From: an uncultured Pseudobdellovibrionaceae bacterium
GTDB lineage: Bacteria; Bdellovibrionota; Bdellovibrionia; Bdellovibrionales; JAGQZY01
DNA length: 64,000 bases
Assembly (NCBI GenBank): GCA_964400355.1
Contig: CAYNTO010000013.1
Span: forward strand, 8,041 to 72,040
Direction of reading: 5' to 3'
Position 1 is the first letter of the stretch, and every line of letters starts with the position of its first letter. The position numbers and the translations under genes are program-made. Below, in pieces: positions 24,001 to 64,000 of this stretch. The notes under the pieces are model-generated. The model saw only the letters and a program-made list of their open reading frames with translations, made no database searches and was not told where the DNA came from.

Positions 24001-25019
24001 CCGCTCAAGTAAACACACAAGGAAACGCCTCTTTAAAGCTATCGGGCAGTTGGCTTCCATTTACACTTTCTGGTGAGTACCAGGTGTTCGATGGTGAGGT
24101 CACAAAAGAGCTGGGCGGCGGATCCGAATCATCTCTCGATAGTCCTTACCATATTTTCTTACCGCAGACGCTACGGCAAAAAACCGCATCCCCACTGGCA
24201 TTGGATTTGAACGTTGTTTTAAAAAATCCATTAAAAATTAAGAACAGTTTGATCGATGGAAAACTGGATGGTGCGCTTCACGTGGCAGGCTTTCCGGAAA
24301 CGCCCTCATTAAAAGGGAAAATAGCTCTGAGCCGCAACTCGCTTCTCAACTTTAAAGACGTGCAGTTTCGTGTTCGGGACTCGAGTATAGTATTTAACGG
24401 CGATGCACCTCCAAACCCTGACATCTACGTGACCGCCAACACCGACTACAAGGGGTACTACATCGATATGCAGGTTTATGGCGCCGCTAGCAAACCCAAA
24501 TTCAAACTCACCAGCCAGCCCAACCTGTCGGAGCAAGAGATAATTTCGTTACTGACTCTCGGCTACACCAATGATGTCAATTTACAGGCACAATCAGCGA
24601 CACAGTCACCGACGCAAAACAACTTTGCCAGTTTTGCGAATTTTAATAACAGCTCTACGCAATCAAACATCGAAGTCGGGACTGGACTCTTCTCGCAGAA
24701 TCCTCTTGGAAAAGAATTCAAGGACCGCTTTGGTTTTGATGTGCAATTTTCTTCGAGTTTCGACACCGCAAACAGTGTCGCCACCCCAAAAGTATCCGTC
24801 GGTAAAAAACTCTCCGACAAAATGACAATCACAGGGAGCGCGCTCACTGGCAAAGATCGTCGTTACGATGCAAAACTCCGTTACGAACTCAATCGCGATC
24901 TGTACGGCACGGCGAGTATTACGACCCGGACACAAGACGACGCTGCCATTCAAAACTTAGGAAACCAGAGGCCCGAGGTGATCGGCGTGGATCTGGAATA
25001 CCGAAAGGAATTTAAGTGA
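21018..25019 (+). CDS. tamB: TamB-like translocation and assembly module protein (AsmA-like, DUF490-type C-terminus)
   Basis: N-terminal TM anchor (MKRRILVAVFSVLLLGLLFA), more than 1300 aa of beta-rich sequence, and a C-terminal LTSQPNLSEQEIISLLTLG region. Followed by an Omp85 gene. Confidence 0.75.
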   Translation: MKRRILVAVFSVLLLGLLFAMSMSWNIAKIDNIVHSELKNLEKHGIPVAATAGKSYFRILPLELTVADVKIDPQGELASQVKPVEVSSITVRPSIWHLAVGKIHISKLIVRHAQVHVTIKEQKSSAPLDLDIFKILKTIPISKIELENISVMANTRVESQSVVAELKGIDSTIINERDFLNLSLRVHEVSATLDKIIVLQKGFFETKFIVTKNNLVISDFKLKEQSSFLVAAGTSQINLKKKTFGKGNINIRAETSSEKIRFIYKLITKKEKTPLDSIHTLFRGDVRLGLNSKLENTEAQIEAALFNFQYDKFRVGNLLAKASYNGSEKKINIQEARLTNNGVTAHTKSTVFRIDTLSFDPVDVNIKMFRLKDYMLYALNNKLTSDVHASGDFNCEGALENLRIVCKGQLDADSIAVNSASNQPIIHLPSAHGSGALTVTAKDVSYTAEIEALSSIGSSSGTISYDNGFDIQFASPKLNATEIKHLSKLEIGGSAKVKGSTKGNSKTATFELTMDAENFELNRFKLGNLSSQLRYKSGSLYFSKIQGALVSSRYLGDLDINLSSDTMSGKLQFPFIDLSVVQDSIKSHLDIPVPLSGSGSAIVSLNSPLDIKKLALQAKARLYNCKVADQHIDNIDLDVISENGKLQLRSATLEEKSTSLRVGGDINIRSEEFDLNFSSKRAHTEDIVYTSSVLKKIKGTVKVEGTITKTFKAPAIAMDFTSDEFFYAKQSLAPLSGKLFFSRDNISAAVKGGEKFQVLFVNHSNSPTYQLEGFTNAFDLSPIIATTLDSDAVDSFYLTSSTKFNLKIPKTNVETASGYAQISELNISSNKNNVAIETPVSLFLTNGKLNFSTFALKGSGGQLTFSSTPNSTVPVDIRVSGVFSLSLLHIFAPFLETIEGQTTINLKLKYGRGTTEMVGSAYVDDGYIKLEQIQHAVENMKADVLFNQDRIVLNAINAKFASGTLVGDGALAFKGPKNIPLNLNFFLDNVNLNMPAQVNTQGNASLKLSGSWLPFTLSGEYQVFDGEVTKELGGGSESSLDSPYHIFLPQTLRQKTASPLALDLNVVLKNPLKIKNSLIDGKLDGALHVAGFPETPSLKGKIALSRNSLLNFKDVQFRVRDSSIVFNGDAPPNPDIYVTANTDYKGYYIDMQVYGAASKPKFKLTSQPNLSEQEIISLLTLGYTNDVNLQAQSATQSPTQNNFASFANFNNSSTQSNIEVGTGLFSQNPLGKEFKDRFGFDVQFSSSFDTANSVATPKVSVGKKLSDKMTITGSALTGKDRRYDAKLRYELNRDLYGTASITTRTQDDAAIQNLGNQRPEVIGVDLEYRKEFK

Positions 25020-27826
25020 TATTTGCTTCACTTATTATGTTCCTTTTAAATGCGCCGTCGTCTTGGGCTCAAGACCGCTACGCCGTTCACCCATCGAGCA
25101 GCGCTGTGGTAAAAAAAATTCTGGGTTCGTCCGCGGGCTCACTGAGCCAAGCGCAAGTGCATGAAGTGCTCAAGGGCCTGAGCGCCACCGACAAGATCCA
25201 GTCCGCCCGGGTGGAACTCAGCGGGGGAAAAATTCTTTTTGTAGTCGAAGAGCTTAAAAAACAGCAAAAATTGATTATTAGCGGTAACCAGGCTCTCACC
25301 GAATCGGAAATTGTCGCGGTCATAGGCGCTGACAAAACGCCACAACTCACCTTGGATCTTGTGCAAAGCGCGCTACCCAGGCTGAAAGAACGTTACCAGG
25401 CGATTGGTTTACGCAATGTAGATATCCAATTGCGCGAAAACTCCGATAGCGAAGTCACCGAGTACTACATCGATGTGAACGAGGGACGATCCGCAACGCT
25501 TGAAGATGTAGTGGTCCTGTCCCAAGATCAGTCTTTAAATGCCAATATCCGTTATGCACTGTCTGGATATCGTGGGCGGCCCATTGATAAAACTGTAATG
25601 AAGGAAATCGAAAAAACAATTTCGGATCTCCTCATCTCAGACCGCATGTTGGGGGCAAAAATTTCGAAAATCGCACCCATCTACAATCAAGATCGCAGTT
25701 CCGCAAAAATCACGGTGACCATAGAAGCCGCCCTCTCTTACGAATTTATATTCGATGGAAACACATACTTTTCGGCAGGCAACATAATCAGCCATTTCGA
25801 TTTAGAAAAAAACTATCTGAATTACATAAAAAACTCCAATCTTTTGATAAAAGACGTCGAAAGCATGTACCGCGACCACGGATTTGCCAATGCGAAAGTA
25901 GAAACAGAGAGTATCGTTTACGAGAAACAAAAAAAGACGGTGATTTTATTCCGCATCCAAGAGGGAAAACAGCTTAAAATTAGAAATATTGTTGTCAGTG
26001 GAAAAATCACGCGTGCTCCCTCTCACTATGAACAAATGATCTACAATAATCTCGGGGAGATGAATAATTCGTCACTTTTCGTTAAACACAATATGGATCG
26101 CGCCATCGAGAAAGTTGCAGTTACTCTCAAGGACGAGGGTTATCTCAAAGCCGAGGCCATGCCCATTAACTATAAAATTAACGATGATGCAACAGTCGAC
26201 ATTCTAGTTCAGATCAACGAAAATATGCTCACGCAAATCCGCAACATTCAGTTTGTAGGAATAAAACAGTTCACCTCCAACCAACTCCACGACGTGATCG
26301 ATCTCAAACCCAACTCCACACTGAACCTGGTTAAAGTTTACGAGAGCTTTTCCAAGCTCCGCACTTTCTATCAGAAGAACGGATTCCTTGAATTCAAGAT
26401 CACCACCTCACCAGAAAGCCTGATTCGCTATTTAGACAACTTTGAGTTTGCTGACCTCAAATACGAAATCGTTGAAGGCCCGCAAATTGTGATCAAAGAT
26501 ATACAAGTGCGCGGTAATACCTTTACAAAAGGTAAGGTTATCTTACGCGAGATCGATCTAAAACCCGGTATGGTACTCACCTCGGATGTTATCAACGATT
26601 CGATAATTTTTTTAGAGCGCACACAGCTCTTTGCACGTGCGCAGATTCAAACCAGCGATGCAGATACCGATGTTAGCGAACGAACGATTTTTGTGGATAT
26701 CGTTGAAAAGAATCCTGGTTTGTTTTCGAGCGGTATCGGGATCTCGAACGATCGCGACATCACCTTGCGCGGGAACGTGGGCGTGAGCTACAACAATATC
26801 CGCGGAAGTGGCCGTGGAGCCAGCGCGCGTGGAGATCTGCGCTACTCGCTGAATAATGATGTGCAGTATCCAGAGAACCGCGTTGTGCTTGGCTACTACG
26901 AACCTTTTCTATTTTTTAACAGGTTACGAGCGCGTATTAACTTGGTTCGCGAACAACTGATTATTTTCGCCGATCCTGATTCTTCAGATCTCACCGTGCA
27001 AACCAATAACGAATTCAGCTGGTACTTGGAAAAGCAATGGACCCGGCGTCTCAAGCTGCTATGGAATACCTATAGCTTGTCGAGCATCCGAACCTTCAAT
27101 AAGAGCGACGGCGCCACGCGCGAGAGCATCGAGGTGGCAACCATAGGACCCGGCTTCGAATGGGATCGCCGCGATGATACATTTGTGCCAGCTGATGGAA
27201 CGTTCACCACCGCGCTAGCGGAATACTCCAACCCAGCCATGGGAAGCTCGGATGATGCCACTCGATATATCGACTTTGTTCGCTTAACCGCAGGCCATAC
27301 GATCTACACACCTCTAACCGAGAACAAGCGTTGGGTGTTTGTGAACGATTTTCGCTGGGGATTCCTAGACAACCTTAGTAATAAGGCCAATTCCGGAGTT
27401 CCCTTTAACAAATTGTTCTACATCGGTGGACGCTCTACTCTTCGTGGTTTTGATCTGCGCCGTGACGAGCGTGTGCCTTCTCTCACTGAAATTTGCGCCA
27501 AGACCGGCACTGCCTGTGAAGGTATCGATGACTTCTTTGTAAAAACGTCTTCCAACTACTATTTGGTGAAAACAGAACTACGCTTTCCTCTCCGCAAAGA
27601 ATTGGGTGGATTGTTGTTTTATGATGGCGGCGCCGTATTTATTAAAGGAATCGACATCAAAGATCGCTATCGCGATACTGCTGGCTTTGGGATTCGCTAT
27701 GTAACTCCTATTGGAGCGCTTTCTGCGGAGCTCGGCTTTAAATTAGACCGTAAAACCGCAACTCCGGGAGTCTATTCCACTGACGAACGCCCGTTCGTCT
27801 TCCATATTTCAATTGGTTCGTATTAA
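25016..27826 (+). CDS. Omp85-family outer-membrane protein (BamA/TamA-like) with multiple POTRA domains
   Basis: Signal peptide, repeated POTRA-like units (e.g. IRNIQFVGIKQFTSNQL, IKDIQVRGNTFTKGKVILREI) and a C-terminal beta-barrel with YIGGRSTLRGF. GTGA overlap with the TamB-like gene. Confidence 0.85.
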   Translation: MIFASLIMFLLNAPSSWAQDRYAVHPSSSAVVKKILGSSAGSLSQAQVHEVLKGLSATDKIQSARVELSGGKILFVVEELKKQQKLIISGNQALTESEIVAVIGADKTPQLTLDLVQSALPRLKERYQAIGLRNVDIQLRENSDSEVTEYYIDVNEGRSATLEDVVVLSQDQSLNANIRYALSGYRGRPIDKTVMKEIEKTISDLLISDRMLGAKISKIAPIYNQDRSSAKITVTIEAALSYEFIFDGNTYFSAGNIISHFDLEKNYLNYIKNSNLLIKDVESMYRDHGFANAKVETESIVYEKQKKTVILFRIQEGKQLKIRNIVVSGKITRAPSHYEQMIYNNLGEMNNSSLFVKHNMDRAIEKVAVTLKDEGYLKAEAMPINYKINDDATVDILVQINENMLTQIRNIQFVGIKQFTSNQLHDVIDLKPNSTLNLVKVYESFSKLRTFYQKNGFLEFKITTSPESLIRYLDNFEFADLKYEIVEGPQIVIKDIQVRGNTFTKGKVILREIDLKPGMVLTSDVINDSIIFLERTQLFARAQIQTSDADTDVSERTIFVDIVEKNPGLFSSGIGISNDRDITLRGNVGVSYNNIRGSGRGASARGDLRYSLNNDVQYPENRVVLGYYEPFLFFNRLRARINLVREQLIIFADPDSSDLTVQTNNEFSWYLEKQWTRRLKLLWNTYSLSSIRTFNKSDGATRESIEVATIGPGFEWDRRDDTFVPADGTFTTALAEYSNPAMGSSDDATRYIDFVRLTAGHTIYTPLTENKRWVFVNDFRWGFLDNLSNKANSGVPFNKLFYIGGRSTLRGFDLRRDERVPSLTEICAKTGTACEGIDDFFVKTSSNYYLVKTELRFPLRKELGGLLFYDGGAVFIKGIDIKDRYRDTAGFGIRYVTPIGALSAELGFKLDRKTATPGVYSTDERPFVFHISIGSY

Positions 27827-42079: not shown

Positions 42080-43849
42080 TTATTCTTTTCCGTCGCGGAA
42101 GCCTTTAAGCTGATCGCCAAAGACATCGCCCAAGCTCGAGTTCGCAGATTGCGAACGACGAGTGTACTCTTGAACATCGCCTTTTTCGTCGCGAAGTTTA
42201 GTAAGACGCGCGCTCAAACCGACTTTACGAGCATCTTGATCGATGCTGATAACTTCTGCTTTTACACTGTCGCCCACTTGCACGACTTCGTTCGGGTGAC
42301 CGATACGGGCCGTAGAGAGTTCAGAGATGTGGATGAGACCTTCAGTTTCCGGGCTCAACTCAACGAATGCACCGAAGTCCGCAATGCGAACAACTTTAAC
42401 ATCGTGAGTAGTACCGATCATGAACTTCTTCTCAACATCTTGCCAAGGATCGGCTTCGAGTTGTTTAAGACCGAGCGAGAATCTCTCGTTCTCAACATCC
42501 ACTCCGAGAACAACGGCGCGCACTTTCGCACCTTTCTCGAACATTTCCGACGGATGATTCACGCGCTTCGTCCAGGAGAAATCAGAGATGTGCACGAGGC
42601 CATCGATACCATCTTCAACACCAACGAAGATACCGAAATCCGTAATCGATTTGATTTCGCCTTCGATGATCGTTCCAGGTTGGTACGTTTCTTTGATTTC
42701 GATCCAAGGGTTTGCTTGAAGCTGTTTGAGACCGAGGCTAATGCGGCGGTTCTCTTGATCAATATCAAGCACCATGGCGCGCACTTCGTCGCCGATGTTC
42801 AAAATTTGTGATGGATGTTTTACTTTTTTAGTCCAGCTCATCTCAGAAACGTGGATCAAGCCTTCTACACCTTCGCCGATTTCTACGAATGCACCGTAGT
42901 CTACGAGGCTAGTGACCTTACCAGTAACTTGTGAACCTTTAGAGTACTTCTCAGCTGTATCGAGCCAAGGATCTCTTTGCAGTTGTTTAAGACCTAAAGA
43001 CACGCGCTCTTTTTCAGAGTCGTACTTGAGAACCATAACTTCGATCTCGTCGCCCACGTTCACAACTTCGCTTGGGTGCTTGATGCGGCCCCAGCTCATG
43101 TCGGTAATGTGGAGGAGGCCATCGATGCCGCCAAGATCCAAGAATGCGCCGTACTCAGTGATGTTTTTCACCATACCGCGAACTTTCGATCCCTCTTTCA
43201 TCATGTCCATAGTTTGCGACTTCATTGTCTCGCGCTCTTGCTCAAGAAGAGCACGGCGGGAAAGAACGATGTTGCCACGTTTTTTGTTGAATTTGATAAC
43301 TTTGAATTTGTACTTCTTGCCGATGTACACGTCCATGTTGCGAACCGGGCGTAGATCGATTTGTGATCCTGGTAAGAATGCTTTTACGCCAATATCAACG
43401 CTCAAGCCGCCTTTAACTTTCGCAATAACAGTACCTTCGATGAGTTCTTGGTTTTCTGCTGCACGAGTGATGTCGTTCCATGCTTTGTACATGTCGGCTT
43501 TGTCTTTAGACAATACGATCATGCCGTTTTCGTTTTCGATTTTATCGATGAAAACTTCAACCTGGTCACCGGGTTGTACAGAGGGTTTGCCTTCAACCAT
43601 ACGGAATTCGTTGATCGGAATAAGACCTTCTGATTTGTAGTTGATGTCGACAAGTACGTAGTCGCTTTGAACTTCTACAACTTTACCGGCAACAATGTCG
43701 CCCACTTTGTAATCTTGATCAGTGAGTGATTCTTGAAACATAGCGCCGAATTCTGTGGATTCGATTTTTTTTGCGCTCATTTCCTGGAAAAGAGAATCGA
43801 TCTTTTGTTTTTCCAGCTGTTTCTTTGTCAAATTTTTTGTATCTTGCAT
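42080..43849 (-). CDS. rpsA: 30S ribosomal protein S1
   Basis: Six S1 (OB) repeats, e.g. GDIVAGKVVEV, GTVIAKVKGG, VRGMVKNITEYGAFLDL, VTGKVTSLVDYGAFVEI, IEGEIKSITDFGIFV, HDVKVVRIADFGAFVEL. ATG 43849 is preferred over 43957. Confidence 0.97.
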   Translation of the reverse strand: MQDTKNLTKKQLEKQKIDSLFQEMSAKKIESTEFGAMFQESLTDQDYKVGDIVAGKVVEVQSDYVLVDINYKSEGLIPINEFRMVEGKPSVQPGDQVEVFIDKIENENGMIVLSKDKADMYKAWNDITRAAENQELIEGTVIAKVKGGLSVDIGVKAFLPGSQIDLRPVRNMDVYIGKKYKFKVIKFNKKRGNIVLSRRALLEQERETMKSQTMDMMKEGSKVRGMVKNITEYGAFLDLGGIDGLLHITDMSWGRIKHPSEVVNVGDEIEVMVLKYDSEKERVSLGLKQLQRDPWLDTAEKYSKGSQVTGKVTSLVDYGAFVEIGEGVEGLIHVSEMSWTKKVKHPSQILNIGDEVRAMVLDIDQENRRISLGLKQLQANPWIEIKETYQPGTIIEGEIKSITDFGIFVGVEDGIDGLVHISDFSWTKRVNHPSEMFEKGAKVRAVVLGVDVENERFSLGLKQLEADPWQDVEKKFMIGTTHDVKVVRIADFGAFVELSPETEGLIHISELSTARIGHPNEVVQVGDSVKAEVISIDQDARKVGLSARLTKLRDEKGDVQEYTRRSQSANSSLGDVFGDQLKGFRDGKE

Positions 43850-44303
43850 GTACGTCCTTAGTTCCTCGGTTTTTCGTAGCCGTTTGGAATGGGCTCGATC
43901 GAACAACCGGTCTCCGAAAGAATGGCATAGTCGCAGCTTGATTGCTCCGGTGTCCACGATGTTTAAGAGAACCGTCAGTTATAGGCGGTAGGCCTGTAAA
44001 GTCAACTCTTTAGCACCGTTTGCAGTCCATTTGGGAAGGCGTTTTTCCCGCACAACAAGGCGGGGCGATTATCACCCCATAAAATTAAAAATTCTATGAA
44101 AAATCAATAGTTTACAATCGCAAAAATAGGGATCCAGTGAGCCACCTGGAGCGCAACGACGAGTGTGCATCTGGTTCCGAGGTGGCAGCCACGCGTTCGC
44201 GCCCACAGAATTCACTGTGAGATCCCGTGAAAATGTCCCTTCCTTAGTCGAGACGTGGACTCGCATCTCTTGGCAGCGGCGGGAACGGTGATAGCGTAAA
44301 GAT

Positions 44304-56553: not shown

Positions 56554-57309
56554 ATGGCACGCCTAGACTTTCAACCGCAAACTGTACCACCGCAAGCGCT
56601 TCCGCAATGCGTGTGGAACACTCACATTTTGTGGGCGGGCTCCACTTCAAACTTGGCATCTCAGGATTTGAGCGGGCTCGCTTTTTCCACGGCAGTTGCG
56701 AGCATCTACACCGGGCTCAACTTTGGCGAAGTGGCCACTATCAGTGAATGGGCCACCGCCGCTGAGATCCAATACGATCGCGAAGCATTATTTGCGGCCT
56801 ACCAATTCCGCTACGATGCCAAAATGGAGAAGACCTTAAAATTGTGGTCCACTCTGCCATCAGCATTTCGCACCTGGGCTATCCAGCATGGCATTTCGAG
56901 CGGTGATCTCTATCCCCTGTGTGCCTTGAGAGAGGCCTCATCACTACATCCCGCCCTCCTCAAAATTGCAGGCCTCCAGGCTTCACGCTCTCAAGGCGTA
57001 CAACTGCTCGAACGTCTCACCGAATGCGCCCTACTCAATACCGATAGTGCTCTGTGGACGAAAAACTCGAGCTCCGTCTCCGATTGGATTCAGAATCTAA
57101 ATTCGATTCGCTTTCCGCAAACTCTTCACCGCGATTCCACTCGTCAAAATAAACTTTTAGTGGGCTGGCCCAAATCATTTTCAACGCGCTGGTTGCGCCA
57201 GGGCGATCGCTCCGGTGTGGAAGTGAAGTTCTTTGTGAGCTCTAAGCGGGAACTGGCGGAAAAGATCTCCACCCTCAATCGCGTGCACGAAGGTTTAAGC
57301 GATGAGTAG
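56554..57309 (+). CDS. hypothetical protein translationally coupled to the SPL-type radical SAM gene
   Basis: ORF ends 8 nt inside the next gene. Start is uncertain (track 56407 overlaps the convergent... divergent neighbour; ATG 56554 chosen). No motif recognised. Confidence 0.4.
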   Translation: MARLDFQPQTVPPQALPQCVWNTHILWAGSTSNLASQDLSGLAFSTAVASIYTGLNFGEVATISEWATAAEIQYDREALFAAYQFRYDAKMEKTLKLWSTLPSAFRTWAIQHGISSGDLYPLCALREASSLHPALLKIAGLQASRSQGVQLLERLTECALLNTDSALWTKNSSSVSDWIQNLNSIRFPQTLHRDSTRQNKLLVGWPKSFSTRWLRQGDRSGVEVKFFVSSKRELAEKISTLNRVHEGLSDE

Positions 57310-58426
57310 CCTCGATAAAATCACGCGGCACTTTGAGCACGTCTACATCGACAAAAAAAGCGTGGCCTCGCAAGTGGCCGCGCGTGCGCTCGATGCGTTT
57401 CCAGCAAATAAGGTTTCCATCATCGACGGCAAGCCCGATATAAAATCGTCTGGCGATTTTACCGGCGAAGAGTATGCGCGCAGTAAAAAATTACTCTACA
57501 TCACCGAGCATCCAGGCTTTTTCTTTAAACGCTGCCCGGGAGCGAAAAAAGGTTTGGCCTGCTGCAATTATTTTGTTTTAAACCTGGGCCTCCAATGCGA
57601 CATGGATTGCTCCTACTGTTACCTCCAGTCGTTCATAAATACGCCCTACACGCTTATTTACTCGAACATTGATCAAGCTCTGCTAGAGCTCGATGGCATC
57701 TACAAAGACCTCGGCAATTCCCCCGTGCGCATCGGTACGGGTGAGGTGATCGATAGCTTAAGCCTTGATCCGCTCACACTCTATTCGCGAACGCTGATGG
57801 ATTTTTTTAAAGACAAACCGCAATGGCGATTAGAATTTAAAACCAAATCCGATCACGTGGATCAATTTATCGATGAATCCCACGCCGGCAACGTGATTGT
57901 GAGTTGGTCCATCAATCCTCAATACATTGTTAGTAAAGAAGAACACCGTACCGCGCCTTTGGCCAATCGCCTCGACGCCGCCAAACGCTGCCTCGATCGC
58001 GGGTTCCAAATCGCCTTCCATGTGGATCCGGTGATTTGGCACGAGCAGTGGAAGCACAATTACACGCTCCTCATCGACGAGATCACAACCCGCTTTAAAC
58101 CCACCGATATGCCGTATATTTCGCTGGGAAGTTTACGCTTTAAATCAGAACAAAAAGATATTATGCGCGAGCGCTTCGGCATGGACAGCCTGGTCACCAA
58201 GGCCGAGATGTTCTCCGGTGCCGCAGGCAAAATGCGCTACGATCAAGCGCTGCGCGAAGAAATGTTCCAATTTATCATTAGCGAATTCAAACGCCGCGAT
58301 CCCCAGTGGAAGATTTTTCTTTGCATGGAAACGCCCGAGACGTGGATCAATGCCACCGGTGAGCTCCCTGTTAAAAAAGACGAATTGCGTTCGCTGTTTA
58401 AGCCGATCGCCACCACGGGCGCTTAA
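57302..58426 (+). CDS. spore-photoproduct-lyase-family radical SAM protein
   Basis: CDMDCSYCYLQ (CxxxCxxC) cluster. SplB-like length and layout. Confidence 0.82.
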   Translation: MSSLDKITRHFEHVYIDKKSVASQVAARALDAFPANKVSIIDGKPDIKSSGDFTGEEYARSKKLLYITEHPGFFFKRCPGAKKGLACCNYFVLNLGLQCDMDCSYCYLQSFINTPYTLIYSNIDQALLELDGIYKDLGNSPVRIGTGEVIDSLSLDPLTLYSRTLMDFFKDKPQWRLEFKTKSDHVDQFIDESHAGNVIVSWSINPQYIVSKEEHRTAPLANRLDAAKRCLDRGFQIAFHVDPVIWHEQWKHNYTLLIDEITTRFKPTDMPYISLGSLRFKSEQKDIMRERFGMDSLVTKAEMFSGAAGKMRYDQALREEMFQFIISEFKRRDPQWKIFLCMETPETWINATGELPVKKDELRSLFKPIATTGA

Positions 58427-58446: not shown

Positions 58447-61400
58447 TTATTCCCACACCATGAGCGTGCGCGGAGCAGATCCCCATGAGGCCGTTAAGGT
58501 TCCACTATTTGTAGCCCACTGCACTTTGATAGTGTGTGATCCGGCAGACAATGTTTCCATGTACTGAAGGTGCGCATTCTTAACGTCATTGCTTCCCGTA
58601 TACTGCAGCGTTTGATCAAGTTTTGCCACGCCGTCGATCACAATCCTAAACGTAGCTATGGCCGATGCCGTATTGTTGTATGTCGGAATGACCGCGCTGA
58701 TCATCACCGGCAAGTTCCCTGTCGTTACCGTAACGCTCATTCCACTTATGTCTGCCCACGTTCCTGAAGTGGTCGTTGTCACCGCTCCCACACTGGCGAA
58801 CGACCGAGCGTTCGTACTCTTGATCTTACCGTTGACTTCGAGCTTCTCCGTGGGCGCGTCAACGCCGATACCCACATTGCCGCCCATGGGATTCAGCAAC
58901 ATGTTATAAGCAACAGCGGGACTGCCGCCCATGAAGCTTGATTGTAACCATGTCGCATAGTTCGCGGTAATCCCGTAGACACCAACACTTAAACCATTGT
59001 TCCCTTCAGTTTGAATTCTGAAAAGAGAGTTGGACGGGTTATTGGTATTTAAAGTCGATAGGGTCGGCACACCAGAAGGCCCATGAACATTTAATCTAGA
59101 AAGCGGAATTGCTGTCCCGACACCCACATTTCCGGACTCGGTCATGGACATCGCGAGGACCTGAGCTGAAGAGGTGTTTTGCGTGTAAAAGCGGAAGCCC
59201 TGGGCACCTCCAGATCCTCCGTCATAGGCAACTATAGATGCACCGACGGTGGTCGTCTCACCGAAAGTGATACCGGAACTCGTGGAACCATTGGGACCAA
59301 CCCCCTGGATTCGAAGCCCGTAAAGCGAGGCATCTGTCGGTGTGTCCATCAAGGAGCTTGGATTTAGAATATGGAGTTTGTTCGCTGGAGTTGACGTACC
59401 GATACCCACACTGCCCACATTGCGGTAGGCATTTCCACCGGCCTCGAGCCATTGTGCTGCTGGGCCTTTTGCAAAGTTGAAACCCCGTCCATCCGAAACT
59501 ATTGTTGAAATGGCGCGATCACAACCAGCGATCGCATCATTGGTCACGCCACCTCCAGCATTGTAAGTGCCCAGAGGATAGTTGTATTGGTGGTAGCGAT
59601 CTCCGCCTGGTCCTGAGAATGGATCACGATAGATCACCAGCCCAAAGTGAGGACCCCAGTTTAAGTACAAAATAAGTTCGGTGCCATCAGCTTGCTTACA
59701 CTTAATAGCATCTGGCCAACCGCTGAGCATTGAATTGTTAGAACCACTCGTGGCAGATGTGGTTTGAACCGTGCCATCTGGGAATTTAATGCCGCCAGAC
59801 AAAGACTCAATAGTTCCATTCACCGTGAGCAACTGTCCCGCTGTCGCAGTGCCGATGCCCACATTGCCATTGTTATCGATGCGAATGCCCTCCGCGCCGC
59901 CGTCGTTCGAAATCCAGTGATTGGTGAGCGAAATATTTGTCGTGGCGATGTGATTTCCCATGTCGTCGGCAGATCCACCGCCACCGCTTCCACCCGTTCC
60001 ACCCGAGATCAAGAACGCTTCGAAGTGAGTGTAACCGCCACCATTGTATGTATTGTATGCGGTTCCGCTGGCCTGATAAGTGAATAGTTCTAAATAGTCT
60101 GTGGTTCCATTCATGTAGACCGTGGTGGATACGTTCGCTGAGCCGTACTCACCGTGGTTACCACCGATAAGGTTGTACTGGTAACCCGAGCCGTTTTTGT
60201 AAATGACGATGTAAGGGTTGTTCCAACCGGCATTAGGAGTATAGAGCACGCTGCCCGTAACGTGGTAATAACCCGCCTTGAGGGGAGTGAACCGATCACT
60301 TGTGAGATTAAAATAGCTATGCGTATCAAAATTTTCCGCGGAAAAATCAAGTTTGGTAAAAACCGCATGAGGAATGGATTGGGCAGAACTTGCCGTCGCA
60401 CGGAAGCCCACCTCTGTCACATCGGCCATTTTTGCCCAGGCGGAATCGCGATAAACGAAAAGGAATTTTTCGGTGGTGTCGAAAACGATCAAACCCTCAG
60501 CCGGAGAGGCGATGGCCGCGCGTTCCGCAGTGGTCATTCGCGGCGGTAAAAATCCTTTAGATGTGGAGTTTACTTGTAGTGCTGCCGAAGCCAGCGGTGC
60601 GGTTGTACCTATACCCACGCTTCCGCCCGTGGGCTGGAGAAGGACATATCCTTTAGTGGAATCGGATGTGGATTCTAGAGTGAGATTTGCACTGGCGGTA
60701 GTGCCACCGCGCAAGTTTTGACCTGAGCCGCGACCGGCAAGCAGTGCATATTGAGTGTGGTCATCATCGCCGAGACCAGTCAGGGCTCCGTGATCAGTAG
60801 CACCCACCAGATCACTGGAACATTCCCAGCGATCACTTGACGTCCACTTGAGCACAAAGCCGTCGGTACACTCCGTGCCCGCCGGCATGTATGTAAAGTA
60901 CTCTGCCGGTGCATTTGAGATTTTTCCAATGCTAATCGCATCCACATCGGCGCTCACAATCGTGCCATCAGTGATTTTGGCGCTCGTGATTCCGCCGTCT
61001 TTGACCTGCACCGTGTTCGTCGCAATTTCGATGGTAGAGTTATCGACGTTCATCGCAATACTGCGATCCGCAGAAAGGTCGCCGCCGCCAGTAAGCCCCG
61101 AGCCGGTGTTGGTGTTGATCGCGCGAGTGGACGACACATTGCCGGTATTCCAACCTGTGGAGATATCTTTACAATTTAATCCCGCCTCATCGCAAATCTG
61201 TTCGGCGCGAATGATACCGGCTATATCCAAAAGTGCGTTGGGAGTGGCTGATCCTATACCGACATTTCCGTTGGAGTCCACACGAATACCTTCTGCCCCA
61301 CCATCACCAGAAATCCAATTGTTTCCGAGAGAGATATTTTGTGCCGCTGTGTGATTGCCCAGGTTGTCACTTCCACCACCAGATGTGCCGGGCGCCACCA

Positions 61401-64000
61401 TCTCTGTAACTACAAAATGGGTATTGTAAAACGGAGTGGCCGTTCCCGTGCCAATATTGTCATCGGAAATGCGAACCCAAATTGTTTCATCGGCGGAAGG
61501 AGTATAGAACTCGAGGAGTTGAGATTTAAATCCGTAGATGGCGCTGGTGCCGCTGGTCGAAGTGTAGGCGTTCTGACCAATGCCACTTGTGCCATTCCAT
61601 AAATGGTAACCCAAATATGCGGCTCCAGTGGCGTTCAATGTGTTGACCGTAGCTTCGATACGGTAGGTTACCCCCGCCTTGAGATTGACGCCGTTAGAAG
61701 TGGTCGTAAAACCACTGTTGGAATAGATGGTGTCAAAAGCTACGATAGACGCTGAATTCACAGATTGTGGCGTGGACATACCAAGCTTGATGTATTTAAC
61801 TTCGCCCTTCAGCCCCAACCACTTACTGCCATTGTGGTAGTCCACATTACCGGTGTCGGTGTTATAAACCATCATCCCGGCTGCCGTAGGGCTTATCGCA
61901 TCACGTTGGGCTTGCGTCATTCGTGGCGGCAAGAAACCTTTCGTAGTGGAATTCACTTGCAACGCCGCAGATGCCAATGGAGACGTGGTCCCGATACCCA
62001 CCCCGCCACCGTTAGGCTGTATAAGCACGTGACCTTTTGTGGCATCGGATGTGGATTCCAAGGTAAGGTTTCCACTGGCCGCAGTTCCACCGCGTAGCAA
62101 TTGTCCCGAACCACGGCCAGCGAGCATCGCGTATTGGGTGTGGTCATCATCGCTAAGCCCCGTTAGCGCTCCATGATCTGTGACACTATTGTCTGCAGCG
62201 CATTCCCATCTGTCATTGGAAGTCCATTTGAGCACAAACCCGTCGGTGCACTCAGTACCAGCTGGCATGTAGGTGAAATACTCGGCTGGTGCGTTTGATA
62301 TTTTTCCAATGCTAATAGTGTCCACATCGGCACTCACAATCGTTCCATCAGTAATTTTTGCACTGCTCACTCCGCCGTCTTTTAATCGGAGTGCATTGGA
62401 GTTGATTTCAATTCCGGTGTTATCCACGTTCACTGCAATATTGCGATCCGCAGAAAGATCACCGCCGCCAGTGAGAGCCGAACCCGTATTTGTATTGATC
62501 GCGCGAGTGGACGCCACATTGCCGGTGTTCCAACCTGTGGAGATATCTTTACAATTTAATCCAGCCTCATCGCAGATCTGTTCGGCGCGAATGATACCTG
62601 CCACATCAAGTAGTGAATTGGGAGACGGGGTACCAATCCCCACGTTGCCAGTCGCACCGATGGCTATACCTTCAGGATCGCCATCACCGGTGAGCCAGTT
62701 GCTGCCTAAAATCAAATTTTGAGTGGCCGTGTGATTGCCGAGATGATCCGCCGCTACGGATCCTGATATGCTTGCAGATATAGAATGTATTGAAAGAGCC
62801 GCCGTTACTGTCGACTCCCCATCCAATGTGTTTGACCCCCAACTAGAGGCGGTACCATTGCCAGTAGCGTACTCCACATCAACCACATCGTTAGCTGCCA
62901 CAGTGAAAATACCCGATAAGCGGCCGTCCTGCTGACCAGCAGCTCCGTGTACCGAGGAGAATACGGTGCTTTGGATCAACGTCGCTGCTGTACCGTTCGT
63001 TTTACGCAGTCGGAACCCAAGATAACGTTCGTTGCCCCAGCCATTGGCCTTAAAATCGACGTAGTACAACCCGCCTCTTGTAAAAGTAAGTGTGGAATTC
63101 GTACGTGCTATATCTTTAGATCTTCTAGTGGTGAGCGTTATCACATTGTGAACGTCGGTCCAAGTCGTTGCAGTCCACGACATACCGCTGGTCGAGTCGG
63201 CGTAAATATATGCTAGATTATCCGTGCTTTGTAAAGATGCCCACGTGCTGTTCGCATACATAAACAATGATTTCTCATCGGTATCAAAAACTACGAGGCC
63301 GTTGGCCGGAGAACTGATCGCAACTCTCTGCGCCGACGTCATGCGCGGTGGAAGAAAACCCTTCGTGGTGGAATCCACCTGCAATGCAGCTGTCGCGACG
63401 GGTCCCGTGGTCCCGATACCCACACCGCCACCGTTAGGCTGTATGAGCACGTGACCTTTTGTAGTATCGGATGTGGATTCTAAAGTCAGGTTGCCACTGG
63501 CTGCCGTACCGCCGCGCAGGTTTTGACCTGCACCACGGCCAGCAAGTAATGCGTATTGCGTGTGATCATCGTCGCCGAGCCCAGTAAGTGCTCCGTGGTC
63601 CGTCGCACCGACGAGATCGGCCGCGCATTCCCATCTGTCGTTGGAAGTCCACTTGAGCACAAAGCCGTCGGTGCACTCAGTACCTGCTGGCATGTACGTG
63701 AAATACTCCGCCGGTGCGTTTGATATCTTTCCGATGCTGATCGCGTCCACATCGGCACTCACAATGGTGCCATCAGCAATTTTCGCACTGGTCACTCCGC
63801 CGTCTTTTAAGCGGAGTGCATTGGAATTGATTTCAATTCCGCTATTGTCGACATTCACTGCAATATTGCGATCCGCAGAAAGATCACCGCCGCCTGTGAG
63901 AGCCGAGCCGGTGTTGGTATTTATCGCGCGAGCGCTCATAACATCGCCACTACCTCCCCACCCTGTGGAGATGTCTCGGCAGTTGGATCCGGTCTCATCG
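58447..64000 (-). CDS. giant modular tail-fibre-like adhesin (5' end outside the window)
   Basis: The frame is open to position 64000. Codons upstream of the track's Met (DETGSNCRDISTGWGGSGDV) align with the internal linker DEAGLNCKDISTGWNTGNV. Recurrent fibre motifs include GNVGIGT..P, DHGALTGLGDDDHTQY, GFLPPRMT.AQR.AI and IKFPDGTVQTTS. Confidence 0.85.
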   Translation of the reverse strand, partial: DETGSNCRDISTGWGGSGDVMSARAINTNTGSALTGGGDLSADRNIAVNVDNSGIEINSNALRLKDGGVTSAKIADGTIVSADVDAISIGKISNAPAEYFTYMPAGTECTDGFVLKWTSNDRWECAADLVGATDHGALTGLGDDDHTQYALLAGRGAGQNLRGGTAASGNLTLESTSDTTKGHVLIQPNGGGVGIGTTGPVATAALQVDSTTKGFLPPRMTSAQRVAISSPANGLVVFDTDEKSLFMYANSTWASLQSTDNLAYIYADSTSGMSWTATTWTDVHNVITLTTRRSKDIARTNSTLTFTRGGLYYVDFKANGWGNERYLGFRLRKTNGTAATLIQSTVFSSVHGAAGQQDGRLSGIFTVAANDVVDVEYATGNGTASSWGSNTLDGESTVTAALSIHSISASISGSVAADHLGNHTATQNLILGSNWLTGDGDPEGIAIGATGNVGIGTPSPNSLLDVAGIIRAEQICDEAGLNCKDISTGWNTGNVASTRAINTNTGSALTGGGDLSADRNIAVNVDNTGIEINSNALRLKDGGVSSAKITDGTIVSADVDTISIGKISNAPAEYFTYMPAGTECTDGFVLKWTSNDRWECAADNSVTDHGALTGLSDDDHTQYAMLAGRGSGQLLRGGTAASGNLTLESTSDATKGHVLIQPNGGGVGIGTTSPLASAALQVNSTTKGFLPPRMTQAQRDAISPTAAGMMVYNTDTGNVDYHNGSKWLGLKGEVKYIKLGMSTPQSVNSASIVAFDTIYSNSGFTTTSNGVNLKAGVTYRIEATVNTLNATGAAYLGYHLWNGTSGIGQNAYTSTSGTSAIYGFKSQLLEFYTPSADETIWVRISDDNIGTGTATPFYNTHFVVTEMVAPGTSGGGSDNLGNHTAAQNISLGNNWISGDGGAEGIRVDSNGNVGIGSATPNALLDIAGIIRAEQICDEAGLNCKDISTGWNTGNVSSTRAINTNTGSGLTGGGDLSADRSIAMNVDNSTIEIATNTVQVKDGGITSAKITDGTIVSADVDAISIGKISNAPAEYFTYMPAGTECTDGFVLKWTSSDRWECSSDLVGATDHGALTGLGDDDHTQYALLAGRGSGQNLRGGTTASANLTLESTSDSTKGYVLLQPTGGSVGIGTTAPLASAALQVNSTSKGFLPPRMTTAERAAIASPAEGLIVFDTTEKFLFVYRDSAWAKMADVTEVGFRATASSAQSIPHAVFTKLDFSAENFDTHSYFNLTSDRFTPLKAGYYHVTGSVLYTPNAGWNNPYIVIYKNGSGYQYNLIGGNHGEYGSANVSTTVYMNGTTDYLELFTYQASGTAYNTYNGGGYTHFEAFLISGGTGGSGGGGSADDMGNHIATTNISLTNHWISNDGGAEGIRIDNNGNVGIGTATAGQLLTVNGTIESLSGGIKFPDGTVQTTSATSGSNNSMLSGWPDAIKCKQADGTELILYLNWGPHFGLVIYRDPFSGPGGDRYHQYNYPLGTYNAGGGVTNDAIAGCDRAISTIVSDGRGFNFAKGPAAQWLEAGGNAYRNVGSVGIGTSTPANKLHILNPSSLMDTPTDASLYGLRIQGVGPNGSTSSGITFGETTTVGASIVAYDGGSGGAQGFRFYTQNTSSAQVLAMSMTESGNVGVGTAIPLSRLNVHGPSGVPTLSTLNTNNPSNSLFRIQTEGNNGLSVGVYGITANYATWLQSSFMGGSPAVAYNMLLNPMGGNVGIGVDAPTEKLEVNGKIKSTNARSFASVGAVTTTTSGTWADISGMSVTVTTGNLPVMISAVIPTYNNTASAIATFRIVIDGVAKLDQTLQYTGSNDVKNAHLQYMETLSAGSHTIKVQWATNSGTLTASWGSAPRTLMVWE
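59800..61134 (-). repeat. fibre module 3 (conserved stalk, variable head 60001-60471, diverging linker)
   Basis: The stalk is about 85-90% identical at protein level to modules 1 and 2. The linker diverges after GNVGIGTATAGQLL and leads into a unique ~450-aa C-terminal region with a fourth head (58450-58806). Confidence 0.8.
61135..62514 (-). repeat. fibre module 2 (460 codons; variable head 61375-61851)
   Basis: Same stalk and linker as modules 1 and 3, e.g. a 41-nt identical run TTCACTGCAATATTGCGATCCGCAGAAAGATCACCGCCGCC in 62428-62470 and 63854-63894. Confidence 0.85.
62515..63939 (-). repeat. fibre module 1 (475 codons: conserved stalk, variable head 62752-63273, conserved linker)
   Basis: Counted from the translation. 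The stalk and linker are near-identical to module 2, while the head is unrelated in sequence. Confidence 0.85.

What the first reader, a model, noticed from the sequence alone, without database searches (positions are those of the whole stretch)
58447..64000. Fibre protein of more than 1850 aa with beads-on-a-string architecture: near-identical stalk modules each carrying a different jelly-roll-like head
The translation shows three complete tandem modules (475, 460 and about 445 aa), the tail of a fourth at the window edge, and a unique ~450-aa C-terminal region.

Each module contains:
- a ~220-aa stalk that is about 85-95% identical between modules (RAINTNTGS.LTGGGDLSADR..., TECTDGFVLKWTS.DRWEC, DHGALTGLGDDDHTQY, GFLPPRMT.AQR.AI)
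- a ~160-175-aa segment with essentially no sequence identity between modules
- a conserved ~80-aa linker (LGNHTA.QNI.LG.NW..GDG..EGI...GNVGIGT..P..LLD.AGIIRAEQICDEAGLNCKDISTGW)

The variable segments lie at 62752-63273, 61375-61851 and 60001-60471, with a fourth at the C-terminus (58450-58806). They share a common beta-strand pattern that looks C1q/TNF-like, for example FTPLKAGYYHVTGSVLY...IVIYKNGSG...DYLELFTYQ.

Established knowledge: phage receptor-binding fibres and bacterial fibre adhesins normally place one variable tip at the C-terminus of a trimeric stalk. Mosaic trimeric fibre adhesins have been reported in predatory Bdellovibrio.

Inference: a single chain carrying four or more different candidate receptor-binding heads separated by identical stalks would be a multivalent, multi-specificity adhesin. 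The gene is cut by the window edge, so the N-terminal anchor and the total number of modules are unknown.
Basis: partly seen in the sequence, partly recalled or inferred. Interest (0 to 1): 0.75.

Follow-up and report, generated by a model that had tools for sequence, protein, structure and literature searches.

The report
Multi-headed surface fibre of a Bdellovibrio relative
A chromosomal gene of an uncultured Bdellovibrio-like bacterium encodes a very long fibre protein that, besides the usual variable tip, carries three different globular heads along its shaft, at least two of them C1q/TNF-like; this layout recurs in sequence databases but I found no published description or study of it.

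Summary
An ORF on the minus strand (stop at 58447-58449) runs off the window at 64000 and gives 1850 codons. It holds three tandem modules of 475, 460 and about 445 aa.

- **Repeats.** The stalks are 81-89% identical in protein but only 73-81% in DNA. Synonymous sites are near saturation and the longest exact repeat is 41 nt. These are old duplicates under purifying selection, not an assembly artefact.
- **Heads.** The three heads share about 20-24% identity.
  - Head 3 belongs to a bona fide C1q family.
  - Head 2 models confidently as a C1q/TNF jelly roll.
  - Head 1 is nearly an orphan and its fold is unresolved, as is that of the C-terminal tip.
- **Family and setting.** The C-terminal part matches the Bdellovibrio fibre Bd2133 (PDB 8OND). 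Full-length homologues carry the signal peptide and N-terminal domain typical of mosaic adhesive trimer (MAT) fibres. The neighbouring genes are housekeeping genes of a Bdellovibrionaceae bacterium, with no phage genes.
- **Novelty.** Internal heads are not unique. Relatives carry 2-7 of them, and many proteins in the libraries have several C1q domains.

Verdict: a MAT-type fibre in a multi-head variant that the MAT paper does not describe. Multi-specific adhesion is plausible but untested. Interest is moderate.

The parts
58447..64000 (-). Fibre gene. It is 3'-complete (stop at 58447-58449) and 5'-truncated by the window edge. 1850 codons are visible.
63958..63999 (-). End of the linker of an earlier, fourth module (DETGSNCRDISTGW). 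It shows that at least one more module lies upstream.
   Evidence: 76% nt identity to the two other linker ends
63295..63957 (-). Stalk 1 (aa 15-235). Motifs: RAINTNTGS..LTGGGDLSADR, a Cys pair in TECTDGFVLKWTSNDRWEC, DHGALTGLGDDDHTQY, GVGIGTT, GFLPPRMT.
62743..63294 (-). Neck hairpin plus head 1 (aa 236-419; core about aa 260-408). The head is all-beta and close to an orphan; its fold is unresolved, possibly TNF-like.
62530..62742 (-). Linker 1 (aa 420-490): LGNHTATQN..GNVGIGT..LLDVAGIIRAEQICDEAGLNCKDISTGW, with a Cys pair.
61873..62529 (-). Stalk 2 (aa 491-709).
61363..61872 (-). Neck hairpin plus head 2 (aa 710-879; core aa 733-869). C1q/TNF-type jelly roll by structure prediction. About 56% identical to internal heads of P0001 and P0018 in other Bdellovibrionales fibres.
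61150..61362 (-). Linker 2 (aa 880-950).
60490..61149 (-). Stalk 3 (aa 951-1170). It is 87% identical to the stalk of P0003 from another genome.
59962..60489 (-). Neck hairpin plus head 3 (aa 1171-1346; core aa 1195-1332). It belongs to a C1q-domain family and is followed by a Gly-rich linker.
59764..59961 (-). Linker 3, which diverges into a Bd2133-like segment (GNVGIGTATAGQLLTVNGTIESLSGGIKFPDGTVQTT).
   Evidence: 8OND, E 3.8e-08
59440..59763 (-). Small domain with one Cys pair (aa 1413-1520). It recurs in 9 homologues.
58834..59439 (-). Beta-helix-type fibre region with GxVG(I/V)G capping-loop-like motifs (aa 1521-1722).
58450..58833 (-). C-terminal beta-rich tip (aa 1723-1850). It has no S74 domain and its fold is unresolved. 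The one homologue found (P0083, 48% identity) has this domain at an internal position.

Best explanation
The gene encodes a secreted, disulfide-stabilised, homotrimeric surface fibre of the mosaic adhesive trimer (MAT) kind, in an uncultured Bdellovibrionaceae bacterium.

**Shown**
- The visible part is built from repeated cassettes in the order stalk, neck hairpin, globular head, Gly-rich hinge, linker.
- A Bd2133-like beta-helix region and a non-S74 beta-rich tip follow the third cassette.
- Heads 2 and 3 are C1q/TNF-type jelly rolls.
- The stalk cassettes are old duplicates held nearly constant by purifying selection.
- Each head belongs to a different sequence family that also occurs in fibres of other genomes.

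**Inferred**
- The heads, together with their neck hairpin, were slotted in by recombination at the conserved junction motifs GFLPPRMT..QR.AI and LGNHTA.
- Each head forms a homotrimer, as C1q/TNF domains do.
- The fibre therefore displays several chemically different binding knobs along its length in addition to the tip. One fibre could then bind several prey-surface ligands, or bind them in turn as predator and prey draw closer.
- By homology with gC1q, the chain enters and leaves each head at its base. Each head is therefore probably a pendant knob at a flexible hinge rather than a collinear bead.
For: - **Architecture and repeats:**
- **Head 3 is C1q:**
- **Head 2 has a C1q/TNF fold:**. 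The neck plus head unit also matches many phage proteins structurally.
- **MAT kinship:**
  - PDB 8OND (Bd2133) is the only significant solved relative.
  - The best homologues are Bdellovibrionales 'tail fiber domain-containing' proteins.
  - 16 other full-length homologues, including a B. bacteriovorus protein, share with P0001 a signal peptide plus an N-terminal domain of about 150 aa. This matches the family definition in PMC10769870.
- **Organism and context:**
  - Ribosomal protein S1 is 92% identical to that of a Bdellovibrionaceae MAG.
  - The flanking genes are housekeeping genes.
  - There are no PHROG hits.
- **Old duplicates under purifying selection:** dS 0.85 to >2, dN about 0.1.
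- **Cassette exchange:**
  - Head 2 is 56% identical to heads in other genomes but about 20% identical to its sister heads.
  - Stalk 3 is 87% identical to the stalk of P0003.
  - The neck hairpin co-varies with head type.
  - The tip-type domain is internal in P0083.
- **Extracytoplasmic location:** the 12 cysteines that can be checked lie in six conserved pairs, and the 13th sits in a conserved linker motif cut by the window edge.
- **TNF-like MAT tips bind prey glycans:** the Bd2439-GlcNAc complex is described in PMC10769870.
Against: - The N-terminus lies outside the window, so the signal peptide and the MAT N-terminal domain are unverified for this protein.
- No trimer could be modelled, so head trimerisation and fibre geometry are inferred.
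- Head 1 and the tip have no resolved fold.
- Nothing here tests ligand binding. The heads might be structural.
- A C1q head has both termini at its base, which makes an in-line fibre awkward. The real quaternary structure is unknown.
- The organism is assumed to be predatory only from its family-level placement.
Confidence: 0.55

Rival explanations
1. The internal heads are mainly assembly devices. C1q/TNF domains are self-specific trimerisation nuclei, so distinct heads placed between near-identical stalks would act as registry keys. They would force the three very long chains to align module-for-module instead of slipping by one repeat. Ligand binding would be left to the C-terminal tip.
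For: - The stalks are 81-89% identical, so out-of-register pairing is a real risk, whereas the heads share only about 20% identity.
- The protein has no S74 chaperone domain.
- It is established that C-terminal C1q (NC1) domains nucleate trimerisation of collagens VIII and X, C1q and adiponectin. These are the same structures that heads 2 and 3 match.
- P0210 shows the same pairing of near-identical stalks (77-91%) with divergent heads (32-45%).
Against: - Most multi-head relatives have dissimilar stalks (12-61% identity) and still carry several heads. Registry therefore cannot be the general reason for internal heads.
- The same head families occur as single heads in other fibres.
- TNF-like domains in MAT proteins are shown glycan binders (PMC10769870).
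- The two roles are not mutually exclusive.
Confidence: 0.25
2. The gene is the tail fibre of a prophage, tailocin or extracellular contractile injection system rather than a cell-surface adhesin.
For: - The neck plus jelly-roll head unit resembles many phage proteins structurally.
- There are weak Pfam hints to DUF2793 and Mtd_N.
- C1q domains occur in eCIS fibres (PMC12923769).
- The DNA beyond position 64000 is unknown.
Against: - There are no PHROG hits.
- The 58 kb on the visible side hold housekeeping genes only.
- Full-length homologues start with a Sec-type signal peptide and the MAT N-terminal domain, not a baseplate-attachment domain.
Confidence: 0.05
3. The tandem modules are an assembly artefact, that is, a mis-joined or artificially expanded repeat.
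For: The gene is repetitive and is cut by the window edge.
Against: - The repeats differ at 19-27% of nucleotides and their synonymous sites are near saturation.
- The longest exact repeat is 41 nt.
- The reading frame is intact over 5.5 kb.
- Each head has its own homologues elsewhere.
- Comparable multi-head proteins exist in independent assemblies.
Confidence: 0.02
4. The internal heads are a store of cassettes for recombinational switching. Deletions or conversions between the stalk repeats would change which heads the fibre displays.
For: Repeated stalks flank different heads. The junction motifs are conserved across head types and across genomes.
Against: - DNA identity between stalks is low (73-81%) and exact runs are at most 41 nt. 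This is a poor substrate for frequent homologous recombination.
- The saturated dS argues against ongoing gene conversion.
- Deletions would never bring an internal head to the C-terminal tip.
- No recombinase or DGR reverse transcriptase gene was seen among the ORFs scanned next to the fibre gene.
Confidence: 0.05

Closest known systems
MAT (mosaic adhesive trimer) fibres of Bdellovibrio bacteriovorus HD100, such as Bd2133, Bd2439 and Bd2734 (Caulton et al. 2024, PMC10769870)
   Same: - Found in the same bacterial family.
- Beta-helix fibre segments with GNVGIG-type capping-loop motifs, and direct sequence similarity to Bd2133 (8OND).
- A non-S74 beta-rich C-terminal tip.
- Use of TNF/C1q-type jelly rolls as adhesive domains.
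- Mosaic, cassette-like evolution.
- Full-length homologues have the signal peptide and conserved N-terminal domain.
   Different: - Published MATs are about 600-1150 aa with one variable domain at the C-terminus.
- This protein exceeds 1850 aa and carries at least three additional heads inside the shaft, separated by near-identical 220-aa stalks.
- Its heads are nearer to C1q proper than to the Bd2439 and Bd2734 tips. Neither tip appeared in the PDB sequence hits or among the 50 best Foldseek matches listed.
- The N-terminus was not seen.
Database proteins with several internal C1q heads. Examples: 'C1q-like domain-containing protein' of Bradyrhizobium liaoningense (P0024, 2080 aa, 7 C1q cores plus S74), Bdellovibrio sp. 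MAG protein P0008 (4 heads of 2 types), and P0210 (5 heads, stalks 77-91% identical).
   Same: - Heads sit between the same neck and LGNH-type junctions within a long fibre.
- Several heads occur per chain.
- P0210 shares the pattern of conserved stalks with divergent heads.
   Different: - I found no published description or study of them (papers library).
- Most have dissimilar stalks.
- Many end in an S74 chaperone, which this protein lacks.
- The window protein combines three unrelated head sequence families.
Collagen-like or fibrous proteins with a C-terminal C1q/TNF head: C1q, adiponectin, collagens VIII and X, and Bacillus BclA/BxpB
   Same: A trimeric jelly-roll head attached to a trimeric fibrous stalk. 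The head nucleates trimerisation and binds ligands.
   Different: In those proteins the head is always terminal and single. Here the chain continues after the head through a Gly-rich hinge into another stalk.
Phage receptor-binding proteins with shoulder-neck-head organisation, and phage or pyocin fibres with in-line knob domains
   Same: A neck hairpin (probably a beta-prism) precedes a jelly-roll head, and there are globular domains along a trimeric fibre. Structural matches were found to many phage proteins.
   Different: - There is no sequence-family match to phage proteins (PHROGs).
- The gene is chromosomal.
- From my own knowledge, the known in-line knobs use folds whose termini lie at opposite ends, unlike C1q.

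Membership tests
MAT superfamily (Caulton et al. 2024) | Signal peptide followed by a conserved beta-rich N-terminal domain of about 130 aa | not testable with these tools
   The N-terminus lies beyond position 64000. The genome was not found in any collection. P0001 and 16 other full-length homologues, including B. bacteriovorus P0031, do have this domain.
MAT superfamily (Caulton et al. 2024) | Beta-helix fibre segments with capping-loop motifs, homologous to solved MAT fibres | tested here: met
   8OND (Bd2133) matches aa 1367-1420 with a whole-sequence E-value of 3.8e-08, plus weaker stretches. There are seven GxVG(I/V)G motifs.
MAT superfamily (Caulton et al. 2024) | Variable C-terminal tip domain (S74 or non-S74) | tested here: met
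   The protein ends in a 128-aa beta-rich domain. It has no Peptidase_S74 hit, so it falls in the NS74 class. The fold is unresolved.
MAT superfamily (Caulton et al. 2024) | Encoded by a Bdellovibrio-like organism | tested here: met
   rpsA is 92% identical to that of a Bdellovibrionaceae MAG. The best fibre homologues come from Bdellovibrionales.
MAT superfamily (Caulton et al. 2024) | Homotrimer displayed on the predator surface | not testable with these tools
   No multimer prediction or experiment was possible. Conserved Cys pairs are consistent with an extracytoplasmic location.
C1q domain (Pfam PF00386; gC1q/TNF superfamily) | Head 3: sequence membership of the C1q family | tested here: met
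   The profile of head 3 plus 26 homologous heads hits C1q, cerebellin and adiponectin in the PDB at E 2e-22 to 1e-11. 21 of 27 members pass Pfam C1q at E <= 0.01. The window copy alone gives no Pfam hit but is up to 42% identical to other members of the alignment.
C1q domain (Pfam PF00386; gC1q/TNF superfamily) | Head 2: jelly-roll fold of the C1q/TNF type | tested here: met
   The AF2 core has pLDDT about 90. The top 50 Foldseek PDB matches are almost all TNF or C1q family members, with target TM 0.7-0.79. There is no Pfam C1q sequence hit.
C1q domain (Pfam PF00386; gC1q/TNF superfamily) | Head 1: sequence or fold of the C1q/TNF type | tested here: inconclusive
   hhalign gives 93% with the neck flank but 4% on the core alone. 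AF2 mean pLDDT is 49.8. Foldseek hits are consistently TNF family but with TM about 0.4. There is no PDB sequence hit, and only one homologue was found among 5.8 billion proteins.
C1q domain (Pfam PF00386; gC1q/TNF superfamily) | C-terminal tip: sequence of the C1q/TNF type | tested here: not met
   hhalign probability is 0.2%. There is no PDB sequence hit below E 0.8. The only Pfam hint is a weak CBM_35_2 match (E 0.007, below the cut-off). The fold was not modelled.
Phage tail fibre families (PHROGs) | Sequence match to a phage protein family and a phage gene neighbourhood | tested here: not met
   There are no PHROG families at E <= 0.001. The neighbours are housekeeping genes.
S74 (endosialidase chaperone) fibres | C-terminal Peptidase_S74 intramolecular chaperone | tested here: not met
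   The window protein has no PF13884 hit. Homologues P0004 and P0024 do have one.

The most novel reading that the evidence does not exclude
Each internal C1q/TNF-like head is an independently exposed, homotrimeric binding site with its own ligand. Because the chain enters and leaves a C1q head at its base, the fibre would be a hinged chain of stalks with pendant knobs. That would be a new architectural principle for bacterial adhesins, giving one predator fibre four or more specificities. It would also act as a step-wise grip on prey as the hinges fold.
Probability: 0.3. Interest if true: 0.75.

Novelty: new variant of a known kind. Interest (0 to 1): 0.55.

Why it matters
Published MAT fibres explain Bdellovibrio's broad prey range through many genes that each carry one variable tip.

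- **Prey recognition.** A fibre with several different heads on one chain would add a second, combinatorial layer to prey recognition.
- **Structural question.** It is unclear how a trimeric fibre continues after a C1q/TNF head whose two termini both lie at the base.
- **Wider reach.** The same layout occurs in many uncharacterised proteins of Bdellovibrionota, and the neck motif alone also occurs in Bacteroidota, Acidobacteriota and Proteobacteria. Solving one example would annotate a large class.
- **Engineering.** The conserved junction motifs GFLPPRMT..QR.AI and LGNHTA also suggest natural splice points for building fibres with chosen heads.

Tried and rejected
- **Recovering the full gene failed.**
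  - The genome-contig scan with head 1 returned only the widespread neck motif and no near-identical locus.
  - Exact-protein look-ups for the SPL neighbour, P0001 and P0003 found nothing.
  - The nearest relative contig (Logan SRR28640823, L081) is only about 80% identical in DNA, and its fetched part ends before the fibre position.
  - SPL-syntenic JGI loci (L083-L085) have no fibre gene beside SPL.
- **Head 1 as C1q by sequence was rejected.** The 93% hhalign score came from the shared neck.
- **Apparent head 1 homologues were false leads.** L015 carries a C1q-type head and L021 is unrelated.
- **The head 1 structure prediction had low confidence**, so its fold matches are only a hint.
- **The tip stayed unresolved.** It gave no C1q profile match and no PDB sequence match.
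- **A phage origin was rejected**.
- **An assembly artefact was rejected**.
- **No other fibre gene** was found in the window.
Full report
**1. Observation**

The minus-strand frame window:58447-63999 is open for 1850 codons. It ends at the stop 58447-58449 and has no stop towards the window edge. Its first residues, DETGSNCRDISTGW, match the end of the conserved linker, so at least one more module lies upstream.

The anchor motifs recur at fixed spacing:
- RAINTNTGS at aa 24, 499 and 959
- GFLPPRMT at aa 214, 688 and 1149
- GNH(T/I)A at aa 421, 881 and 1348

This gives modules of 475, 460 and about 445 aa. An alignment of the three modules and pairwise identities show:
- stalks 81-89% identical
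- linkers 75% identical between modules 1 and 2, and 41-52% against module 3
- heads 21-24% identical, which is the background level for forced global alignments

**2. Not an artefact and not recent**

Codon-aligned stalk repeats are 73-81% identical in DNA. They have dS 0.85 (repeats 1 v 2) to >2 (against repeat 3) and dN about 0.09-0.12. The longest exact repeat in the gene is 41 nt.

The repeats are therefore old duplicates whose protein sequence is held constant by purifying selection. They have not been homogenised by recent gene conversion, and an assembler would not confuse them. Stalk 3 is as close to the stalk of P0003 from another genome (87%) as to its sister stalks. The stalk is therefore a conserved cassette of the family.

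**3. What the heads are**

*Head 3.* It has 34 homologous domains in 21 of the 120 best homologues. A profile of 27 of them (A1) hits C1q, cerebellin-1, adiponectin, C1q-like proteins and collagen X NC1 in the PDB at E 2e-22 to 1e-11. 21 of the 27 members individually hit Pfam C1q. Head 3 is therefore a C1q domain, although the window copy alone stays below Pfam's threshold.

*Head 2.* It has six homologues at 42-59% identity over the neck-to-linker segment. An AF2 model built on them has a core pLDDT of about 90. Its best PDB matches are EDA-A1 (a TNF family member), collagen VIII/X NC1, Caprin-2 C1q, C1QL and cerebellin, with target TM 0.7-0.79. It is a C1q/TNF jelly roll. The neck plus head unit also matches many uncharacterised phage proteins.

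*Head 1.* It is nearly an orphan. A dedicated search of 5.8 billion proteins found one 190-aa fragment, P0121, at 51% identity. An apparent hhalign match to the C1q profile (93%) fell to 4% once the shared neck was removed. AF2 gave a mean pLDDT of 49.8. The model's Foldseek hits are almost all TNF or C1q proteins, but at TM about 0.4. The fold is all-beta and possibly TNF-like, and remains unresolved.

*C-terminal tip (aa 1723-1850).* It shows no relation to C1q and no PDB sequence match. There is only a sub-threshold CBM_35_2 hint. Its one homologue, P0083 (48% identity), carries the domain at an internal position between Gly-rich linkers.

**4. Family and organism**

The only significant solved relative of the whole protein is Bd2133 (8OND) of B. 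bacteriovorus. It matches the segment GNVGIG...GGIKFPDGTVQTT that follows head 3. The best homologues are 'tail fiber domain-containing' or hypothetical proteins of Bdellovibrionales and Bdellovibrio MAGs. No identical protein is on record; the best is P0001 at 64% identity over 32% of the query.

P0001 and 16 other full-length homologues, including a B. bacteriovorus protein, share a signal peptide plus an N-terminal domain of about 150 aa. This fits the MAT definition of Caulton et al. 2024: a signal peptide, a conserved beta-rich N-terminal domain of about 130 aa, a trimeric fibre, and a variable C-terminal tip that may be S74, a novel beta-sandwich, TNF-like or a C-type lectin.

The window otherwise encodes housekeeping genes:
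- PBP2 and a TamB/TamA-like pair
- ribosomal protein S1, PGK and GAPDH
- TatD, the DNA polymerase III delta' subunit (holB) and thymidylate kinase
- a spore-photoproduct-lyase-like radical SAM enzyme, convergent with the fibre gene

The fibre has no PHROG hit. Ribosomal protein S1 is 98% identical to that of an unnamed Logan contig and 92% identical to that of a Bdellovibrionaceae MAG. The 12 cysteines that can be checked fall in six conserved pairs, and the 13th lies in a conserved linker motif cut by the window edge. This is consistent with an extracytoplasmic protein.

**5. How unusual is the architecture?**

Internal heads between the same junction motifs (GFLPPRMT upstream, LGNH downstream) occur in 18 of the 120 best homologues. 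HMMs of the head cores find several heads per chain in relatives:
- P0024, Bradyrhizobium liaoningense, annotated 'C1q-like domain-containing protein': 7 C1q cores plus a C-terminal S74
- P0008, Bdellovibrio sp. MAG: 4 heads of two types
- P0110: 4 heads
- P0090: 3 heads
- P0033: 2 heads of different types

A full HMMER search of 1.84 billion representatives with the C1q-head profile found 64,273 proteins at E <= 0.001 and 676 at E <= 1e-30. All 142 newly retrieved proteins among the best 150 have 2-10 C1q cores. Many of these are tight tandems with 13-40 aa spacers and no fibre motifs. A smaller set has long stalks between heads.

Among fibres with long stalks, stalk-to-stalk identity is usually 12-61%. 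Only P0210 (stalks 77-91%, heads 32-45%) resembles the window's contrast of conserved stalks and divergent heads.

The neck motif alone is widespread. Of 592 pattern-matched stretches, 498 encode a relative of the query, across Bacteroidota, Bdellovibrionota, Acidobacteriota and Proteobacteria.

I found no description of internal or multiple heads in the MAT paper or its supplement, or elsewhere in the searched library. C1q domains in eCIS tail fibres have been noted (PMC12923769).

**6. Mechanism**

*Shown.* The protein has a modular layout: stalk, neck hairpin, head, Gly-rich hinge, linker. Two heads are C1q/TNF-like. The protein is related to MAT fibres. The stalks are under purifying selection. 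Each head belongs to a sequence family shared with other genomes: head 2 is 56% identical to the heads of P0001 and P0018, against about 20% to its sister heads. The neck hairpin co-varies with the head type.

*Inferred.*
- Heads plus necks are exchanged as cassettes at the conserved junctions. This is the mosaic principle of MAT fibres extended to internal positions.
- Each head trimerises like other C1q/TNF domains and offers its own binding surface. This would give a multi-site adhesin for prey surfaces, by analogy with the GlcNAc-binding TNF-like tip of Bd2439.
- By homology to gC1q, the first and last strands both lie at the base of the head (alignment; established C1q structure). A 12-15-residue Gly/Ser-rich hinge follows each head. 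The heads are therefore more likely pendant knobs at flexible joints than collinear beads.

This geometry could not be tested, because only monomers could be modelled.

**7. Rivals**

- *Registry keys.* The heads may chiefly act as self-specific trimerisation or registry keys that keep near-identical stalks in register. This is attractive for this protein and for P0210. It is not general, because most multi-head relatives have dissimilar stalks.
- *Phage, tailocin or eCIS fibre.* Unlikely, given the context, the absence of PHROG hits and the N-termini of homologues.
- *Assembly artefact.* Excluded by sequence divergence.
- *Cassette store for recombinational switching.* Disfavoured by low DNA identity and saturated dS.

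**8. Verdict**

The protein is best filed as a MAT-type fibre in a multi-head variant that is common in databases and that neither the MAT paper nor the other papers I searched describes. The N-terminus, the total module number, the quaternary geometry and the ligands remain unknown. Interest is moderate. The most interesting open point is how a trimeric fibre continues after a C1q head.

Noticed in passing
Proteins P0126, P0127, P0135 and P0137 from the representative library: These proteins have 7-10 C1q cores separated by only 13-40 aa and lack fibre motifs. From my own knowledge, the spacing resembles the short linkers of engineered single-chain TNF/C1q trimers, so the domains may fold as intrachain pseudo-trimers. 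This is a different architecture from the window's fibre.
   Followed up: partly
P0083 aa 721-837, compared with window 58450-58800: The window's C-terminal tip-type domain occurs at an internal position in P0083 (48% identity), flanked by Gly-rich linkers. The same head cassette can therefore be terminal or internal.
   Followed up: partly
P0210 (3821 aa): This is the only other protein found that combines near-identical stalks (77-91%) with divergent C1q heads (32-45%).
   Followed up: partly
window 5449-7350 (+): A 633-aa protein fuses a response-regulator receiver domain, a DnaJ (J) domain and TPR repeats. This is an unusual domain combination.
   Followed up: no
window 21003-27826 (+): A TamB-like gene (1338 aa) is directly followed by an Omp85/POTRA TamA-like gene (936 aa).
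   Followed up: no
window 57302-58426 (+) and 58447 (-): A spore-photoproduct-lyase-like radical SAM gene is convergent with the fibre gene, with only 20 bp between the two stop codons. In SPL-syntenic metagenome loci (L083-L085) there is no fibre gene at this position, so the fibre's location appears specific to this lineage.
   Followed up: yes
L081 13697-21745 (Logan SRR28640823 contig): The nearest relative contig has about 80% DNA identity, with synteny from rpsA to tmk. Near rpsA it encodes a 2682-aa protein with faint Big_13/TEN_NHL hits. The ORF list for the corresponding part of the window shows no ORF of comparable size.
   Followed up: no
window 42080-43957 (-): The mechanical rpsA ORF is 625 aa, whereas its close homologues are 584-602 aa. 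The true start is probably about 36 codons downstream of the first candidate start.
   Followed up: no
Genome-contig loci L001-L080: The neck motif KGFLPPRMT..QR.AI..P..G..V.NT is found in hundreds of loci from Bacteroidota, Holophagaceae, Geobacteraceae and Alphaproteobacteria, and in bins labelled Methanosarcinales. It seems to be a portable junction element that precedes head domains.
   Followed up: partly
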